Positions 19,077 to 23,233 of a stretch of 64,000 nucleotides of DNA are shown one piece after another. The notes beneath the pieces are model-generated. The model did no database searches. It saw only the letters and a program-made list of their open reading frames with translations, and was not told the DNA's origin. Source of the stretch: an uncultured Bdellovibrionales bacterium (GTDB taxonomy: Bacteria > Patescibacteriota > Minisyncoccia > Moranbacterales > UBA9337); NCBI GenBank assembly GCA_964605525.1, contig CAZSCV010000002.1, positions 69,888-133,887 on the forward strand, written 5' to 3'. Numbering within the stretch: position 1 is the first letter of the stretch; the number at the start of each line of letters is the position of its first letter. The position numbers and the translations under genes were made by a program.

Positions 19077-19149
19077 GCCACCTTAGCTCAGCTGGTAGAG
19101 CGGCTGTTTTGTAAACAGCGGGTCGTCGGTTCAAGTCCGGCAGGTGGCT
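19077..19149 (+). tRNA. tRNA-Thr (anticodon UGU)
   Basis: Cloverleaf folded by hand: acceptor GCCACCT/AGGTGGC, D arm GCTCAGCTGGTAGAGC, anticodon stem GCTGT/ACAGC with loop TTTGTAA, T arm GTCGGTTCAAGTCCGGC. No encoded CCA. Confidence 0.85.
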
Positions 19150-19176: not shown

Positions 19177-19259
19177 GGGTCGGTGGCAGAGCGGTCAAAT
19201 GCATCAGACTGTAAATCTGACGTCTTCGGACTTCGGGGGTTCGATTCCCTCCCGGCCCA
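19177..19259 (+). tRNA. tRNA-Tyr (anticodon GUA; type II, long variable arm)
   Basis: Acceptor GGGTCGG/CCGGCCC, anticodon loop CTGTAAA, long variable arm CGTCTTCGGACTTCG, T loop TTCGATT. Confidence 0.8.
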
Positions 19260-19359: not shown

Positions 19360-19950
19360 ATGAAGATAACAAAAGAAAAATTAGAACATTATTATTTTGC
19401 AAAAAAAATGTCGGTCAAAGAAATGACTAATGTTTTTATAAGAAGTGAAACATGTATTAGTTATTGGATGAAAAAATATGGAATAAAGAAAAGAACGATA
19501 AGCGAATCTGTATATTTAAAAAATAATCCGAATGGTGATCCATTTAAGATAAGGAAGGATTTAAACAGTGAGTTGACGGAATTAAAAGGAATAGGTATAG
19601 GGTTATATTGGGGTGAGGGAAACAAACGAAATAAAAATTCTATAAAAATTGGGAATACTGACCCAGCGTTAATAAAAAAATTTATAGAATTTTTAGTAAA
19701 AATTTTAGGAGTAAAAAGAAAAAATATACGTTTTTCTTTGCAGGTTTTTAGTGATATGAATTCAGAAAAAGCCAAGAGATATTGGTTAGAAGAATTAAAA
19801 GTTGACCCTGCGCAATTTTCAAAAAAAATAACCATAACTCATTCCGGAAAAGTCGGTAATTATAAAAGAAAAACGCAATACGGTGTTCTCACGATGTATT
19901 ATCACAATACAAAGTTGAGAAATATTTTAATTGCAATGTTGCCGTTGTAG
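19360..19950 (+). CDS. free-standing putative LAGLIDADG-like homing endonuclease (N-terminal HTH-like segment)
   Basis: GIGLYWGEGNK followed by ALIKKFIEFLVKILGV resembles the LAGLIDADG helix plus the following scaffold helix (compare I-CreI LAGFVDGDGS...LDKLVDEIGVG). Sits between two tRNA genes, and its last 10 nt overlap the 5' end of the intron-containing tRNA. Assignment is by motif only. Confidence 0.35.
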   Translation: MKITKEKLEHYYFAKKMSVKEMTNVFIRSETCISYWMKKYGIKKRTISESVYLKNNPNGDPFKIRKDLNSELTELKGIGIGLYWGEGNKRNKNSIKIGNTDPALIKKFIEFLVKILGVKRKNIRFSLQVFSDMNSEKAKRYWLEELKVDPAQFSKKITITHSGKVGNYKRKTQYGVLTMYYHNTKLRNILIAMLPL

Positions 19951-20213
19951 CTCAGTTGGTAGAGCACATCCATGGTAAATTAAAAACTGCCCATTGATTA
20001 GGAAACTTTTCATTGAATCCCGAATAACGGTTAAAGACCTAGCACGAGGTTCAGACCGTGGCGAAATTTTCGCCCGAACGACTGACAAGGGGGACTAAGT
20101 CTTTGGAATACATTGATATGTTCAATATACAGTCTAGTTCTCTTATATAGGTGTTTTAAAAAAAAGAGATAGCAATGAAGGATGAGGTCCGCGGTCCGAT
20201 TCCGCGCAACGGC
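19941..20213 (+). tRNA. tRNA-Thr (anticodon GGU) gene interrupted in the anticodon loop: exon 1 at 19941-19976, exon 2 at 20177-20213
   Basis: Exon 1 is GCCGTTG TA GCTCAGTTGGTAGAGC A CATCC ATGGT. Exon 2 is AA GGATG AGGTC CGCGGTCCGATTCCGCG CAACGGC T. Acceptor stem 7/7 and anticodon stem CATCC/GGATG 5/5. Joined loop is ATGGTAA (U33, A37). Confidence 0.75.
19977..20176 (+). mobile_element. group I-like intron (200 nt) in tRNA-Thr(GGU) anticodon loop, inserted after nt 36
   Basis: 5' exon ends in U and the intron ends in G (omega-G). R-like element CGAACGACUGACA and S-like element AUAUACAGUCUAG can form P7 (GACUG/CAGUC). Size is comparable to the 205-nt Azoarcus tRNA-Ile intron. The P1/IGS pairing is only partly resolved by eye. 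Confidence 0.6.
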
Positions 20214-20256
20214 TCAGAGGAAGGTAAATATGTTAATATGTTAAAATGTAAAATAT

Positions 20257-20418
20257 TATGGCAAAGACAAAGGAAAATCTGGTTAAATTCAAATGCAATG
20301 AGTGCAAAAAAATAACTCATTATTCTAATCGTAACAAAAAGAAATTGAAAGAGAAATTGGAAATGAAAAAATATTGCAAATTCTGCAAAAAGCATACTCT
20401 GCACAAGGAAGCGAAATA
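20257..20418 (+). CDS. rpmG: 50S ribosomal protein L33 (zinc-ribbon type)
   Basis: MAKTKENLVKFKCNECKKITHYSNRNKKKLKEKLEMKKYCKFCKKHTLHKEAK has the CxxC...CxxC L33 signature. Below the ORF-track size cutoff. Confidence 0.85.
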
Positions 20419-20448
20419 ATTTGACAAAAGTCCGCCCTGGCGGACAAA

Positions 20449-20519
20449 GGCGGGTGTCGTACAGTGGCAGTACGTTGGTCTCCAAAACCAATAACGGGAG
20501 TTCGATTCTCTCCACCCGT
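20449..20519 (+). tRNA. tRNA-Trp (anticodon CCA)
   Basis: Acceptor GCGGGTG/CACCCGT (G1.U72), D stem GTAC/GTAC, anticodon stem TTGGT/ACCAA with loop CTCCAAA, T arm GGGAGTTCGATTCTCTC. Preceded by a GTCCGCC-ctg-GCGGAC hairpin. Confidence 0.75.
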
Positions 20520-20557: not shown

Positions 20558-20687
20558 ACGTTTTTGCTGTAGGTTTATTTGACACACAATGATTTTTATG
20601 CTATCATAAGTAGTTATTGAGGAATAACCCTCAATACAATCCTCAGCGATCGAGGGATCACTCTCGACGCAAAAAAGGAGGCCAGTT

Positions 20688-21122
20688 ATGGCAAATTTAG
20701 TTCTTATTGGTAAAGAAGGACAAATCAAGGCAAAGTTATCCTGCTCTGCATCCTTGCCTCCGGACTTCAAAGTTCCGGAAGGCTGCATTTTAAGCTGGGA
20801 TGATCAGCCGCATCGTGCCGAAGGATGGTATAAGGGCAACCAGAATCGTGGTCCGGAAATCATCAAGCACAGGAGTGCAAGCGCAGTACTGAGGAACTAC
20901 CATCCTACAGTTCATATTCGAATCGAGAGTTCGGATGCCAGAGATCTGTTTGAGCTGATTGAGATCGTATGGCTGCACATTGGCGGAACAGTTATCCCTG
21001 CCAGATGGCCAGCCGAGAGAGATCAATCGTTTATCGCTGGCGTTCAGGGTGATTGCAGGCGATTGAAGGATGGGATTGTTCGGGTCAAACAAGTCATTGG
21101 AATGAAACTCGCCTCTCTCTAG
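20688..21122 (+). CDS. hypothetical protein, compositionally foreign (about 50% GC)
   Basis: Strong RBS AAGGAGG 7 nt upstream. GC and codon usage unlike the flanking genes. No recognised family. Confidence 0.55.
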   Translation: MANLVLIGKEGQIKAKLSCSASLPPDFKVPEGCILSWDDQPHRAEGWYKGNQNRGPEIIKHRSASAVLRNYHPTVHIRIESSDARDLFELIEIVWLHIGGTVIPARWPAERDQSFIAGVQGDCRRLKDGIVRVKQVIGMKLASL

Positions 21123-21207
21123 GGGGGGGTGGCATAAGCTAATGATGCAAACGAAAGGGTTCTCTAGCCGAGCTAGTTGATCCCTTTTTTGTTTATTGAA
21201 TGATGGG

Positions 21208-21244
21208 CCAGTGATTTACAACAGACCATCACTGGTCTTTTTTA
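21208..21244 (+). terminator. rho-independent terminator (CCAGTGAT...ATCACTGG + T-run) fused to repeat copy A
   Basis: 8-bp perfect stem followed by TCTTTTTT. Confidence 0.65.
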
Positions 21245-21340
21245 TTTCATCAAAACCATCGCTCTCTCCAATCTAATTTCAATCACATCCCAATTCTCCA
21301 ATATATTGGTTCGAAGCGTGTACCCTAGTCTGTGCAAAAT
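21238..21340. repeat. copy A of a roughly 105-bp intergenic repeat family (TTTTTTATTTCATCAAAACC...CCAATATATTGGTTCGAAGCGTGTACCCTAGTCTGTGCAA)
   Basis: Near-identical to copy C at 31786-31886; diverged copy B at 22969-23071. Contains the 12-bp perfect palindrome CCAATATATTGG. Confidence 0.8.
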
Positions 21341-21601
21341 AAAGCAGTTTTCTTTACGGAGGCTGTTTTTTTTGTCAGAAAATCTTTTTTAGCGTAACTT
21401 CTTTTTCTTCCATAGCGTTAATTGAGTTAACCCTCCAGTTTACCAGAAAAAGGGGCTTCGGGGTTTGAATTCGGGCCATGGCTGAGGGCTGGACATTTTT
21501 ATTTATTTGTGCAATAATCAAATGTTGCCAAATGATTGGCATCCCTTGAATGCAGGTGGCATTCACAGTTCCTAAAACCCTAAAATGGGAAAGGAGATGC
21601 T

Positions 21602-22915
21602 ATGAAAACGAAAGGGGAAAAAGATGGCTTGTTGGGAGGTGCAATGGCTTTCTATCATGATAAGGGCTTTGTTCCTGCATTTAAGCAAGCAATGCGATAT
21701 GCTGCAGGACGTGCTGGCCGAGTTGGGACTATGCTGGACTGGGTGGATGCACGATTAGCAATACCGCCGTACGAAAAACTGGGCATGCATGACACATCAA
21801 ATCCAACTCCTTGGGATCAGTACTACACAACCATGTCTGCTGAGTATGTTGGTATCAGCAAGGGTGGAACCAAAATCTTGATCGTTGCTCATGGTATCGG
21901 ACCAATGGCAACACTTGATGGTGTCGTCGAAGCATATCGATATCATTATAATGATAAGACACGCCGGACTGAGGGTGGCCGTATTTCAGTGGAGGAGTTC
22001 CGGAAGCTTGAGAGTGGCATCTATGGTGACGTGGTGATTGTCGATCTTGAAGAGTATGTATTTGAGCGTGAGTATCCGTTCATTGCAACTCTCCACTATT
22101 TTGATGCACTGGATGACTCAGTGCTTAAGGCTCGCCTTGGCTCAAGGGCTGATGAGTACATTGAGCAACATGCAAATTATGCAAGGAAATACCATCTGGA
22201 TGCTCATCAGCGTATGATTATAGATCCCTACATTATAGGGAACGAAGGACCGGGAATGTACTGGGTCAAAAATACCAAGCCCGAAGATGGTCTTGCATAT
22301 GCTCATCTTCTGAGCGTCGGTGCGATTACGAATTTACATGTCAGCCAAAGCGAGCATCGGGTCCCCAGCTGGGTGTCTGATGTGAACACACATGGTTGGT
22401 ATGACGGTACTCGCCTGATTGGTATTCCTGAGGGTAAGCTTGCATCTATCGGCAAAGGCCCTGATGCATATCGCCTGCTGCGCAAGCACTGGCAAGAGCT
22501 TTTTGAGCCGAGTGGTCTCAACCGCTCACCCGATGGGCTCTTCGTTCTGATGCAAATGCCGGACAAGACGTGGTTCACGCAGTTCCAGAAGAAGGGAGCT
22601 AGCGCTGACAGCTACGAACCGGAATTCCGTGTGACGTCGATGGAGAAGGTGGGGGAACTTGCTCGGTTTTACACCGAGTCGAACTATCCCGTCCCGATCT
22701 TCCGATACGACATCCGCGAGGCGCAGGCTGTGCTTTCCAAAGAAACCAATGCTTACGAACTCGTTGGTGATCCGACCAAGACAGGTGGTGCTGATAGTCA
22801 GGAGACCTGTCTCGTGCAGGGCTATCGCATCGAAATTGACCATACGCAACGGCTTATGCGACAAGAAGTATTGGCCAATAATTACGAAAAGATGATGCAG
22901 CTTCACGAGAAGTAA
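21602..22915 (+). CDS. hypothetical protein, compositionally foreign (about 50% GC), 437 aa
   Basis: RBS GGAAAGGAG; no recognisable domain by inspection. Confidence 0.55.
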   Translation: MKTKGEKDGLLGGAMAFYHDKGFVPAFKQAMRYAAGRAGRVGTMLDWVDARLAIPPYEKLGMHDTSNPTPWDQYYTTMSAEYVGISKGGTKILIVAHGIGPMATLDGVVEAYRYHYNDKTRRTEGGRISVEEFRKLESGIYGDVVIVDLEEYVFEREYPFIATLHYFDALDDSVLKARLGSRADEYIEQHANYARKYHLDAHQRMIIDPYIIGNEGPGMYWVKNTKPEDGLAYAHLLSVGAITNLHVSQSEHRVPSWVSDVNTHGWYDGTRLIGIPEGKLASIGKGPDAYRLLRKHWQELFEPSGLNRSPDGLFVLMQMPDKTWFTQFQKKGASADSYEPEFRVTSMEKVGELARFYTESNYPVPIFRYDIREAQAVLSKETNAYELVGDPTKTGGADSQETCLVQGYRIEIDHTQRLMRQEVLANNYEKMMQLHEK

Positions 22916-22930
22916 AAGCATCGAAATCCT

Positions 22931-22974
22931 GCGGAGCCGCACCCACAGCAATATGTGGGTCGCGGCTCTTTTTT
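22931..22974 (+). terminator. rho-independent terminator (GAGCCGC...GCGGCTC + T6) fused to repeat copy B
   Basis: Long GC-rich stem-loop followed by a T-run. Confidence 0.6.
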
Positions 22975-23071
22975 ATTTCATCAAAATTCTTACTTGCTCT
23001 AATTTTGCCTTAACACTTTCCCAATTTTCCACCATTAAAGTTCGAAGTATATACCTTCTCCTGTGCTGATG
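22969..23071. repeat. copy B (diverged) of the roughly 105-bp repeat family
   Basis: Shares TTTTTTATTTCATCAAAA...CCAATTTTCC...AGTTCGAAGTATATACC...GTGCTGATG with copies A and C. A further right-end fragment is at about 23868-23915. Confidence 0.65.
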
Positions 23072-23233
23072 AAAAACGAGGCTTATTTGAGCTTTGTTTT
23101 TGTTTGGGGACTGGACATGATAACTTCTTTTAGTGTCTACCAACGCGCATTGAATAAAGGCAGGAACTATGTTAGTATCGAGGTGGATTATAAATTAATT
23201 CACCTTGTTTTTATTAGATTAAAAAAATGCAAT

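What the first reader, a model, noticed from the sequence alone, without database searches (positions are those of the whole stretch)
19941..20213. tRNA-Thr(GGU) gene split by a 200-nt group I-like intron in the anticodon loop
The two halves reconstitute a perfect tRNA. Acceptor stem GCCGTTG/CAACGGC pairs 7/7 and anticodon stem CATCC/GGATG 5/5, with a D arm and a T arm (T loop TCCGATT) present. The joined loop is ATGGTAA. The intervening 200 nt start after a U (position 36) and end in G, as group I introns do. They contain R-like (CGAACGACUGACA) and S-like (AUAUACAGUCUAG) elements that can form P7. The size is close to the 205-nt Azoarcus tRNA-Ile intron. I know of no reported tRNA-gene group I intron in a CPR-like lineage; introns reported there sit in rRNA genes. 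Without the intron this locus looks like an uninterrupted run of tRNA, ORF and rpmG.
Basis: partly seen in the sequence, partly recalled or inferred. Interest (0 to 1): 0.8.

Follow-up and report, generated by a model that had tools for sequence, protein, structure and literature searches.

The report
Group I intron in tRNA-Thr gene
The gene for a threonine tRNA in this candidate-phyla-radiation bacterium is interrupted by a 201-base intron of the self-splicing group I type; such introns in this tRNA of this lineage were first published in 2025-26, so this is a real but already described kind of feature.

Summary
Bases 19941-19976 and 20178-20213 join into a canonical tRNA-Thr(GGU), split after U36 by a 201-nt insert (19977-20177), not 200 nt.

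The insert is a group I intron. I collected about 170 homologous tRNA-Thr inserts from Patescibacteria. All follow a U and end in G. The P1-P9 fold, including the P3/P7 pseudoknot and P9.0, is 95% paired, against 26-43% for slid controls. Compensatory changes occur in 32 of 50 and 37 of 49 pairs. The L2 loop type covaries with a P8 receptor.

Rfam's Intron_gpI model misses all of these introns. That blind spot is already documented. Nakagawa et al. (mSystems 2026) and tFind (Williams 2020) report "divergent group I introns" at 36/37 of Patescibacteria tRNA-Thr(GGU). Splicing of this class has not been shown experimentally.

Two side findings:
- The family also occurs in phage protein-coding genes.
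- The upstream ORF (19360-19950) is an HTH plus LAGLIDADG-fold protein. It sits directly 5' of tRNA-Thr(GGU) in 79 of 79 determinable loci, and 52 of those carry the intron. It may be a free-standing homing endonuclease; this is unproven.

The parts
19941..19976 (+). 5' exon of tRNA-Thr(GGU), positions 1-36; the last three bases G34 G35 U36 (19974-19976) form the exon strand of P1
   Evidence: the exon end CC(A/U)UGGU is conserved in all relatives.
19977..20177 (+). Group I intron, 201 nt, with no internal ORF of note
19989..19991 (+). Internal guide sequence GCC, pairing with GGU of the exon (P1; U36.G19989 wobble)
   Evidence: Invariant in 50/50 relatives. A phage relative has GCU/GGC instead.
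19992..20015 (+). P2 hairpin with GAAA loop (20002-20005); 7 of 10 pairs form in the window copy
   Evidence: 9 of 10 and 10 of 10 pairs covary. Loop type covaries with the form of P8.
20019..20021 (+). P3 5' strand (CCC), pairing with 20089-20091
   Evidence: 98% paired, and all 3 pairs show C-G to U-A changes, on an alignment whose model did not contain P3.
20027..20059 (+). P4 (20027-20032 with 20054-20059) enclosing P5 (20036-20040 with 20047-20051)
   Evidence: The minimum-free-energy fold recovers it. P4 is invariant and P5 covaries.
20060..20074 (+). P6 hairpin (GGCGAA / UUCGCC)
   Evidence: 5 of 6 and 6 of 6 pairs covary.
20075..20088 (+). J6/7 (CGAAC), P7 5' strand GACUG (20080-20084) with the presumed G-binding G-C pair G20080-C20134, and J7/3 (ACAA)
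   Evidence: Invariant core. It resembles the RF00028 consensus aAGACUA. The extra pair A20078-U20135, with C20079 bulged, changes to G-C in L061.
20089..20091 (+). P3 3' strand (GGG)
20092..20123 (+). P8 hairpin with an internal loop like the 11-nt GAAA receptor (CUAAG ... UAUG)
   Evidence: All 4 outer pairs covary. The receptor-like form is associated with GAAA in L2 (Fisher p = 6e-15).
20124..20134 (+). J8/7 (AAUAUA) and P7 3' strand CAGUC (20130-20134)
20137..20138 (+). J7/9 dinucleotide GU, the strand of P9.0 that pairs with AU at 20175-20176
   Evidence: Both pairs form in 137 of 140 relatives, against 68.6 expected after shuffling; about 8 pair combinations occur.
20139..20169 (+). P9 (UCUCU 20139-20143 with AGAGA 20165-20169) and its loop
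   Evidence: 5 of 5 pairs covary.
20175..20177 (+). [quoted passage not shown]
   Evidence: G precedes the 3' exon in all relatives examined, about 170.
20178..20214 (+). 3' exon of tRNA-Thr(GGU), positions 37-73; no encoded CCA
19360..19950 (+). Neighbouring 196-aa ORF: N-terminal HTH plus LAGLIDADG-fold domain, with its stop codon inside the tRNA acceptor stem. It is associated with the tRNA-Thr(GGU) locus but is not part of the intron.

Best explanation
The locus is a functional tRNA-Thr(GGU) gene interrupted between anticodon-loop positions 36 and 37 by a 201-nt group I intron.

Proposed course of events, inferred from the established group I mechanism:
1. The precursor is transcribed and the intron folds into the group I core. 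P4-P6 stacks on one side and P3-P7-P8 on the other. The GAAA loop of P2 docks into the receptor in P8.
2. The guide sequence GCC (19989-19991) pairs with G34 G35 U36 of the exon, forming the U.G wobble that marks the 5' splice site.
3. A free guanosine bound at the G-C pair of P7 (G20080-C20134) attacks after U36.
4. The terminal G20177, positioned by the 2-bp P9.0, takes its place. The freed 3' OH of U36 attacks after G20177.
5. The exons are joined into a 73-nt tRNA with anticodon loop AUGGUAA.

Shown here: the exons, the boundaries, the fold and its conservation.
Inferred: catalysis and splicing in vivo.

This is one copy of a large family found in tRNA-Thr(GGU) genes of Patescibacteria. 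Close relatives of the family sit in phage protein-coding genes.
For: Exons and boundaries
- ARAGORN intron mode reconstitutes tRNA-Thr(ggt) with a 201-nt intron at 36/37.
All follow ...UGGU and end in G before A(A/G)(G/U)G(A/G).
- In relatives whose intron starts with G, the junction can only be 36/37.

Structure
- On 50 sequences, 95.1% of cells pair, against 27-43% when partners are slid. 32 of 50 pairs have compensatory changes, and 0 of 500 shuffles reach the observed values.
- On 97 distinct, mostly independent metagenome sequences, 95.0% of cells pair and 37 of 49 pairs are compensated. This includes P3, which was not in the aligning model.
- P9.0 forms in 137 of 140, against 68.6 after shuffling.
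- L2 = GAAA goes with a receptor-like P8, and other GNRA loops with a plain helix (53/13 against 2/37, p = 6e-15).

Link to known group I introns
- The J8/7-P7 segment matches the RF00028 consensus at 15 of 16 positions, with a compensated P7 pair.
- Model R1, built from these introns, hits phage introns at 38-134 bits. Three of those (L083, L116, L122) also get weak RF00028 hits of 21.6-23 bits.

Literature
[quoted passage not shown] They are missed by RF00028, miscalled Arg(GCG) 34/35 by ARAGORN, and found by tFind's gpI_bact_tRNA model. I saw the same tool behaviour here.
Against: - Rfam Intron_gpI gives no hit, even at E <= 10, in the window or in 16 related loci.
- P1, P4 and most of P7 are invariant within the tRNA-Thr set, so they are neither supported nor contradicted by covariation there.
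- The window copy has a short P1 (3 bp, no extension hairpin), three U.U mismatches in P2 and a weak inner P8 stem.
- The single-sequence fold is not exceptional (z = -1.49).
- No splicing experiment exists for the tRNA-Thr class. PMC13011429 tested only the Asn and Asp introns at 35/36.
- From a 64-kb window I cannot tell whether the genome has another tRNA-Thr(GGU) copy.
Confidence: 0.93

Rival explanations
1. The intron has a group I fold but does not splice efficiently on its own. It depends on a protein helper, possibly the adjacent HTH-LAGLIDADG protein acting as a maturase, as some fungal mitochondrial LAGLIDADG proteins do for their introns.
For: - The window copy has weak peripheral helices: a 3-bp P1 and a mismatched P2.
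- A LAGLIDADG-fold ORF sits immediately upstream in 52 intron-bearing GTDB loci and in 41 of 95 metagenome loci.
- That LAGLIDADG proteins can act as maturases is established knowledge, not tested here.
Against: - 54 of 95 intron-bearing metagenome loci lack the ORF.
- 27 of 79 ORF-bearing loci lack the intron. Neither element needs the other nearby.
- The related Asn and Asp introns of the same phylum self-splice in vitro (PMC13011429).
Confidence: 0.1
2. The tRNA gene is a pseudogene broken by an insertion that is never removed, and the two halves are relics.
For: Standard tRNA finders do not call the gene, and the standard group I model does not call the insert.
Against: - Both halves are perfectly paired and collinear with intact homologues.
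- The insert is conserved, with compensatory changes that preserve a ribozyme fold, in about 170 loci across many Patescibacteria lineages. A dead insertion would not show this.
- No other tRNA-Thr(GGU) lies in the window.
Confidence: 0.03
3. The insert is an archaeal or eukaryotic-type tRNA intron at the canonical 37/38 position, cut out by a protein endonuclease at a bulge-helix-bulge motif.
For: In the window copy the AA repeat at both junctions makes 36/37, 37/38 and 38/39 formally indistinguishable.
Against: - In relatives whose intron begins with G, the junction can only be 36/37.
- The insert is always preceded by U and always ends in G.
- It folds as a group I core with strong covariation.
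- At 201 nt it is far longer than typical bulge-helix-bulge introns (from general knowledge).
Confidence: 0.01

Closest known systems
Divergent group I introns at position 36/37 of tRNA-Thr(GGU) in Patescibacteria (Nakagawa et al., mSystems 2026, PMC13011429; detected by tFind, Williams 2020, bioRxiv 10.1101/2020.01.27.920355)
   Same: - Same host gene, insertion site and phylum.
- Same tool behaviour: no RF00028 hit, and ARAGORN often reports Arg(GCG) at 34/35.
- About 200 nt long with no internal ORF.
   Different: - That paper lists three cases among 95 complete genomes. This copy comes from a Moranbacteria-like metagenome-assembled genome.
- The window copy lacks the P1 extension hairpin that many relatives have.
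- The paper gives no covariation analysis or splicing test for the Thr class, and does not mention the upstream ORF.
Bacterial tRNA group I introns inserted after anticodon position 36: Azoarcus tRNA-Ile(CAU) and Agrobacterium tRNA-Arg(CCU), subgroup IC3 (recalled from memory; position 36/37 for tRNA-Arg is also stated in PMC13011429)
   Same: Insertion after a U at position 36, about 200 nt, no ORF, short P1. As far as I recall for Azoarcus, there is also a GAAA L2 loop docking into a P8 receptor.
   Different: PMC13011429 places the Patescibacteria tRNA introns, the Thr ones included, in subgroup IA and none in IC. I could not run subgroup models here.
Group I introns in phage protein-coding genes (IMG/VR contigs L081-L125 found here)
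   Same: Same core sequence and fold. Model R1, built only from tRNA-Thr introns, scores them at 38-134 bits. Most have a 5' exon ending GGU paired with guide GCC.
   Different: They interrupt protein genes; for example, three introns lie in one capsid-like gene in L105/L123. Three of them get weak RF00028 hits of 21.6-23 bits, unlike the tRNA-Thr copies.
Collaborative homing: a free-standing homing endonuclease gene next to an ORF-less group I intron (phage T4 mobE with the nrdB intron, PMC2790892; cyanophage S-PM2 F-CphI with the psbA intron, PMC6083498)
   Same: An ORF-less group I intron with a nuclease-like gene just outside the interrupted gene. The two elements occur together or separately among relatives.
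   Different: Here the protein has a LAGLIDADG fold, not HNH or Endo VII. The host is a bacterial chromosome and the target is a tRNA gene. There is no cleavage or homing evidence, so this is only an analogy.

Membership tests
Group I intron | The 5' splice site follows a U that forms a U.G wobble with an internal guide sequence (P1) | tested here: met
   U36 pairs with G19989, and G34/G35 with C19991/C19990. This is invariant in 50/50 relatives. A phage family member has the compensated GCU/GGC.
Group I intron | The intron ends in a guanosine (omega G) | tested here: met
   G20177. G is present at this position in all relatives examined, about 170.
Group I intron | Conserved core of P3-P9 with the P3/P7 pseudoknot and a P4-P5-P6 domain | tested here: met
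   95% of cells pair, against 26-43% for slid controls. 32 of 50 and 37 of 49 pairs are compensated. P3 was tested on an alignment whose model lacked it.
Group I intron | Conserved J6/7-P7 and J8/7-P7 sequence elements containing the guanosine-binding G-C pair | tested here: met
   AAGAUACAGUCUAAUC in relatives (AAUAUACAGUCUAGUU in the window) against the RF00028 consensus AAGAUAUAGUCuaauc, and ACGACUGACAA against aAGACUA...AA. Binding itself was not tested.
Group I intron | Match to the Rfam Intron_gpI covariance model (RF00028) | tested here: not met
   No hit at E <= 10 in the window or in 16 related loci. PMC13011429 documents the same failure for this class, so this reflects the model's reach rather than the RNA.
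Group I intron | Guanosine-dependent self-splicing | not testable with these tools
   Not yet reported for the tRNA-Thr class. The Asn and Asp introns of the phylum do self-splice (PMC13011429).
Patescibacteria tRNA-Thr(GGU) 36/37 divergent group I introns | Host gene tRNA-Thr(GGU), insertion between positions 36 and 37 | tested here: met
Patescibacteria tRNA-Thr(GGU) 36/37 divergent group I introns | Patescibacteria host | tested here: met
   The closest homologues of the flanking ORF, and the closest loci, are labelled Moranbacteria / Moraniibacteriota / Parcubacteria. The gene order tRNA-Thr, tRNA-Tyr, tRNA-Thr, rpmG, tRNA-Trp is shared.
Patescibacteria tRNA-Thr(GGU) 36/37 divergent group I introns | Detected by the tFind model gpI_bact_tRNA.cm | not testable with these tools
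   That model is not available here.
Group I subgroup IA versus IC3 | Subgroup-specific peripheral elements and subgroup covariance models | not tested
   No subgroup models are available. PMC13011429 assigns the class to IA. I saw no helices between P3' and P8, which are adjacent in the fold.
Bulge-helix-bulge (archaeal-type) tRNA intron | Junction at 37/38 within a bulge-helix-bulge motif | tested here: not met
   The junction is fixed at 36/37 in relatives whose intron starts with G, and the fold is group I.
LAGLIDADG homing endonuclease (for the neighbouring ORF 19360-19950) | LAGLIDADG alpha-beta fold | tested here: inconclusive
LAGLIDADG homing endonuclease (for the neighbouring ORF 19360-19950) | Sequence match to LAGLIDADG family profiles | tested here: not met
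   No Pfam, NCBIfam or PDB-sequence hit. There is only a motif-like GLGLYWGEG with invariant E86, plus an N-terminal HTH resembling the DNA-binding modules of phage HNH endonucleases (E = 8e-6).
LAGLIDADG homing endonuclease (for the neighbouring ORF 19360-19950) | Site-specific DNA cleavage and homing | not testable with these tools
   Circumstantial only: the ORF is patchily present, truncated copies exist, and introns 97% identical occur with and without it.

The most novel reading that the evidence does not exclude
The intron is one half of a two-part mobile cassette. The free-standing HTH-LAGLIDADG gene abutting the 5' end of tRNA-Thr(GGU) would be a homing endonuclease that cuts ORF-less or intron-less tRNA-Thr alleles. 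Repair would copy the gene together with the nearby ORF-less intron, and the intron would protect its carrier by splitting the target site.

If so, the claim that Patescibacteria tRNA introns lack homing endonucleases and rarely move would need revising. It would also link these introns to the closely related phage introns. A further unexplained element is the L1 loop triplet complementary to the intron's last three bases in many relatives, which suggests an undescribed alternative pairing that competes with P9.0.
Probability: 0.3. Interest if true: 0.6.

Novelty: new member of a known kind. Interest (0 to 1): 0.3.

Why it matters
The intron itself matters mainly for annotation. Without intron-aware tools this genome appears to lack tRNA-Thr(GGU), which distorts completeness estimates and codon-reading inferences for candidate-phyla-radiation genomes. 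The standard Rfam model does not help. The class is already published, so the intron adds no new biology by itself.

The survey done here adds four things:
- Covariation-level proof of the fold for a class that has not been tested experimentally.
- Evidence that the class is far more common than the three published cases.
- Evidence that it is closely related to phage introns.
- A conserved endonuclease-like gene next to the target tRNA, which could explain how these ORF-less introns spread.

Tried and rejected
- Rfam at gathering and at E <= 10, on the window and on 16 related loci, gave no Intron_gpI hit. I did not treat this as refutation. The literature documents the blind spot, and homologous phage introns get weak hits.
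- The single-sequence fold recovers P4-P6 but is not statistically exceptional (z = -1.49), so it is uninformative on its own.
- I tried to define a clean presence/absence boundary for the ORF by comparing L152 (no ORF) with L211 (ORF). The L211 contig is too short upstream.
- I compared anticodon stems of intron-bearing and intron-less tRNAs as a test for target-site immunity. Intron-bearing genes almost all have ...UCC/GGA... stems and intron-less ones vary. Shared ancestry could explain this, so I draw no conclusion.
- The bulge-helix-bulge intron, pseudogene and mobile-insertion readings were considered and rejected, as set out under rival explanations.
- The Williams 2020 preprint's table of intron types is an image and could not be read.

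Full report
**Observation.** Bases 19941-19976 give an acceptor strand, a D arm, the 5' anticodon-stem strand CAUCC and AUGGU. Bases 20178-20213 give AA, GGAUG, a variable loop, a T arm and the 3' acceptor strand. Default ARAGORN and the Rfam tRNA model do not call the gene. ARAGORN in intron mode calls tRNA-Thr(ggt) with a 201-nt intron between positions 36 and 37. So the insert is 19977-20177, one base longer than stated. Neighbours are tRNA-Thr(UGU) at 19077, tRNA-Tyr at 19177, a 196-aa ORF at 19360-19950, rpmG at 20258-20419 and tRNA-Trp at 20450.

**Relatives.** The 196-aa ORF has hundreds of homologues, all from Patescibacteria. The closest are labelled Moranbacteria. Using an alignment of these proteins I fetched 80 loci from species-representative genomes.
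- In every locus where the downstream sequence is available (79 of 80), the ORF is directly followed, and often overlapped by 3-10 bases, by a tRNA-Thr(GGU) gene.
- 52 of those genes carry an insert of 176-229 nt at the same site, and 27 are uninterrupted.
- ARAGORN labels many of the split genes Arg(gcg) or His(gtg). Inspection shows that all have ...CC(A/U)UGGU, then the insert ending in G, then AAGGA or a close variant.

**Structure.** The alignment shows a strongly conserved core, in this order:
- GGU | L1 | (U)GCCC
- the P2 hairpin with a GNRA loop
- GAA UCCC GAAUA ACGGU UAAAG
- the P5 hairpin
- (C/A)AG ACCGU
- the P6 hairpin
- CGAAC GACUG ACAA GGG
- the P8 hairpin
- AAGAUA CAGUC UA NN CCUCU ... 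AGAGG U(G/A)UAA NNG |

I wrote this down as the group I fold, with P3 and P7 crossing as a pseudoknot, and counted pairs.
- On 50 sequences, 95.1% of cells form standard pairs, against 27-43% when the 3' partners are slid by 1-3 columns. 32 of 50 pairs show changes on both sides, and no shuffle of 500 reaches the observed values.
- P2, P5, P6, P8, P9, P9.0 and P3 covary. P1, P4 and P7 are almost invariant, so they are uninformative.
- I built a covariance model (R1) from this alignment without P3. I used it to align 102 matches, of which 97 rows are distinct. Apart from the window copy they come from metagenome contigs, and two of them are weak second hits in L167 and L202.
- On that set 95.0% of cells pair and 37 of 49 pairs are compensated. 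P3, which was not fitted by the model, is 98% paired, and all three pairs show C-G to U-A changes.
- P9.0, the two bases of J7/9 pairing with the two bases before the terminal G, forms in 137 of 140 introns, against 68.6 after shuffling. About eight different pair combinations occur.
- A tertiary signal is also present. When the P2 loop is GAAA, P8 carries an internal loop resembling the 11-nt GAAA receptor (CUAAG...UAUG and variants). When the loop is another GNRA, P8 is a plain helix (53/13 against 2/37, Fisher p = 6e-15, not corrected for relatedness).

The window copy has all the invariant core bases, the GAAA loop and the receptor. It has only a 3-bp P1 with no extension hairpin and three U.U mismatches in P2.

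**Link to known group I introns.** Rfam Intron_gpI finds nothing at E <= 10 in the window or in 16 related loci. The consensus printed for that model includes gAAGAUAUAGUCuaaucU and aAGACUA. Relatives of the window intron have AAGAUACAGUCUAAUC and ACGACUGACAA, which is the same element with one P7 pair changed on both sides. Model R1 scores the window copy at 186 bits and nothing else in the window. It scores 52 places in the 45 viral contigs, the stronger ones at 38-134 bits. Three of those places (in L083, L116 and L122) also get weak Intron_gpI hits of 21.6-23 bits. In contig L105 three such introns interrupt one capsid-like gene. One of them has exon GCU paired with guide GGC in place of GGU/GCC, which is a compensated P1.

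**Literature.** Nakagawa et al. (mSystems 2026, PMC13011429; preprint July 2025) surveyed 95 complete Patescibacteria genomes.
- They list three tRNA-Thr(GGU) genes with introns at 36/37. These are not detected by RF00028, are called Arg(GCG) 34/35 by ARAGORN in two cases, and are detected by tFind's gpI_bact_tRNA model (Williams 2020).
- They call these divergent group I introns and place them on a long branch within subgroup IA.
- They tested splicing only for the Asn and Asp introns at 35/36.

**Mechanism.** By the established group I pathway, free guanosine bound at the P7 G-C pair (G20080-C20134) attacks after U36, which is held in the U.G wobble with G19989. Then G20177, positioned by P9.0 (20137-20138 with 20175-20176), occupies the same site, and the exons are joined. 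The exons, boundaries and fold are shown here. Catalysis is inferred.

**Rivals.**
- A bulge-helix-bulge intron is excluded. The junction is fixed at 36/37 in relatives, and the fold is group I.
- A dead insertion is excluded, because compensatory evolution preserves a ribozyme fold across about 170 loci.
- Dependence on a protein helper cannot be excluded. It is not favoured, because the intron and the ORF each occur without the other.

**The neighbouring ORF.**
- Its model is confident (pLDDT 89).
- It carries an invariant GLGLYWGEG motif. Its N-terminal HTH resembles the DNA-binding modules of phage HNH endonucleases.
- Sequence profiles for LAGLIDADG do not match, and Foldseek is not significant.
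- Among intron-bearing metagenome loci with enough upstream sequence, 41 of 95 have an ORF match. A few of these are truncated remnants or lie further upstream.
- Where the ORF is absent, the upstream tRNA is often only 17-430 nt away, against 634-823 nt in loci with a full-length ORF.
- Introns 97% identical occur with and without the ORF.

This pattern fits an optional, losable element such as a free-standing homing endonuclease gene, as in phage collaborative homing (PMC2790892, PMC6083498). There is no functional evidence, and a domesticated DNA-binding role is equally possible.

**Verdict.** This is a genuine group I intron in tRNA-Thr(GGU). It is a new instance of a class already described in this phylum, so interest in the finding as stated is low to moderate. 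The side observations are the parts that go beyond the published account: the endonuclease-like neighbour, the phage relatives, and the L1 / 3'-end complementarity.

Noticed in passing
window 19360-19950 (+): A 196-aa ORF with an N-terminal HTH and a LAGLIDADG-fold domain, whose stop codon lies inside the tRNA-Thr acceptor stem. Homologues sit directly 5' of tRNA-Thr(GGU) in 79 of 79 determinable GTDB loci (52 with the intron, 27 without) and in 41 of 95 intron-bearing metagenome loci. Truncated copies exist. It may be a free-standing homing endonuclease, and I did not find it mentioned in the literature I could search.
   Followed up: partly
L081-L125 (IMG/VR contigs), e.g. L105 6270-6475, 6743-6936, 7559-7758: The same intron family (R1 scores mostly 38-134 bits) interrupts phage protein-coding genes. 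Three copies lie within one capsid-like gene in L105/L123, and one of them has a compensated P1 (GCU/GGC).
   Followed up: partly
Relatives with a P1 extension hairpin, e.g. L015 3659-3675, L024 3651-3667, L036 3617-3633; absent in the window copy: The L1 loop starts with C-N-N, complementary to the last three bases of the intron (CGC/GCG, CAC/GUG, CGU/ACG, CUC/GAG, CAU/AUG). This holds in 22 of 28 and 54 of 112 introns, against 11.4 and 26.6 after shuffling. It is the same dinucleotide as the J7/9 strand of P9.0, so the two pairings would compete. I know of no named group I pairing that matches it.
   Followed up: partly
window 20600-23100: Just after tRNA-Trp the G+C content rises to 0.45-0.50, against about 0.35 elsewhere. 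Two ORFs there have no Pfam match (20688-21122 and 21602-22915). The larger one is flanked by a direct repeat of roughly 130 nt (about 21225-21345 and 22955-23075, 72% column identity over the aligned windows). secE and nusG do not follow tRNA-Trp. This may be an inserted island.
   Followed up: partly
L018 1924-2136; L167 7085-7293 (-); L202 79-299: Second, weaker matches to the intron model (25-38 bits) lie close to the tRNA-Thr intron. This suggests further group I introns of related type in neighbouring genes.
   Followed up: no
Anticodon stems of tRNA-Thr(GGU) in L001-L080: Intron-bearing genes almost all have anticodon stems ending ...UCC/GGA... (28 of 51 are identical, ACUCC/GGAGU). Intron-less genes next to the same ORF have varied stems. 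This could reflect exon requirements of the intron, co-conversion during homing, or simply shared ancestry.
   Followed up: no
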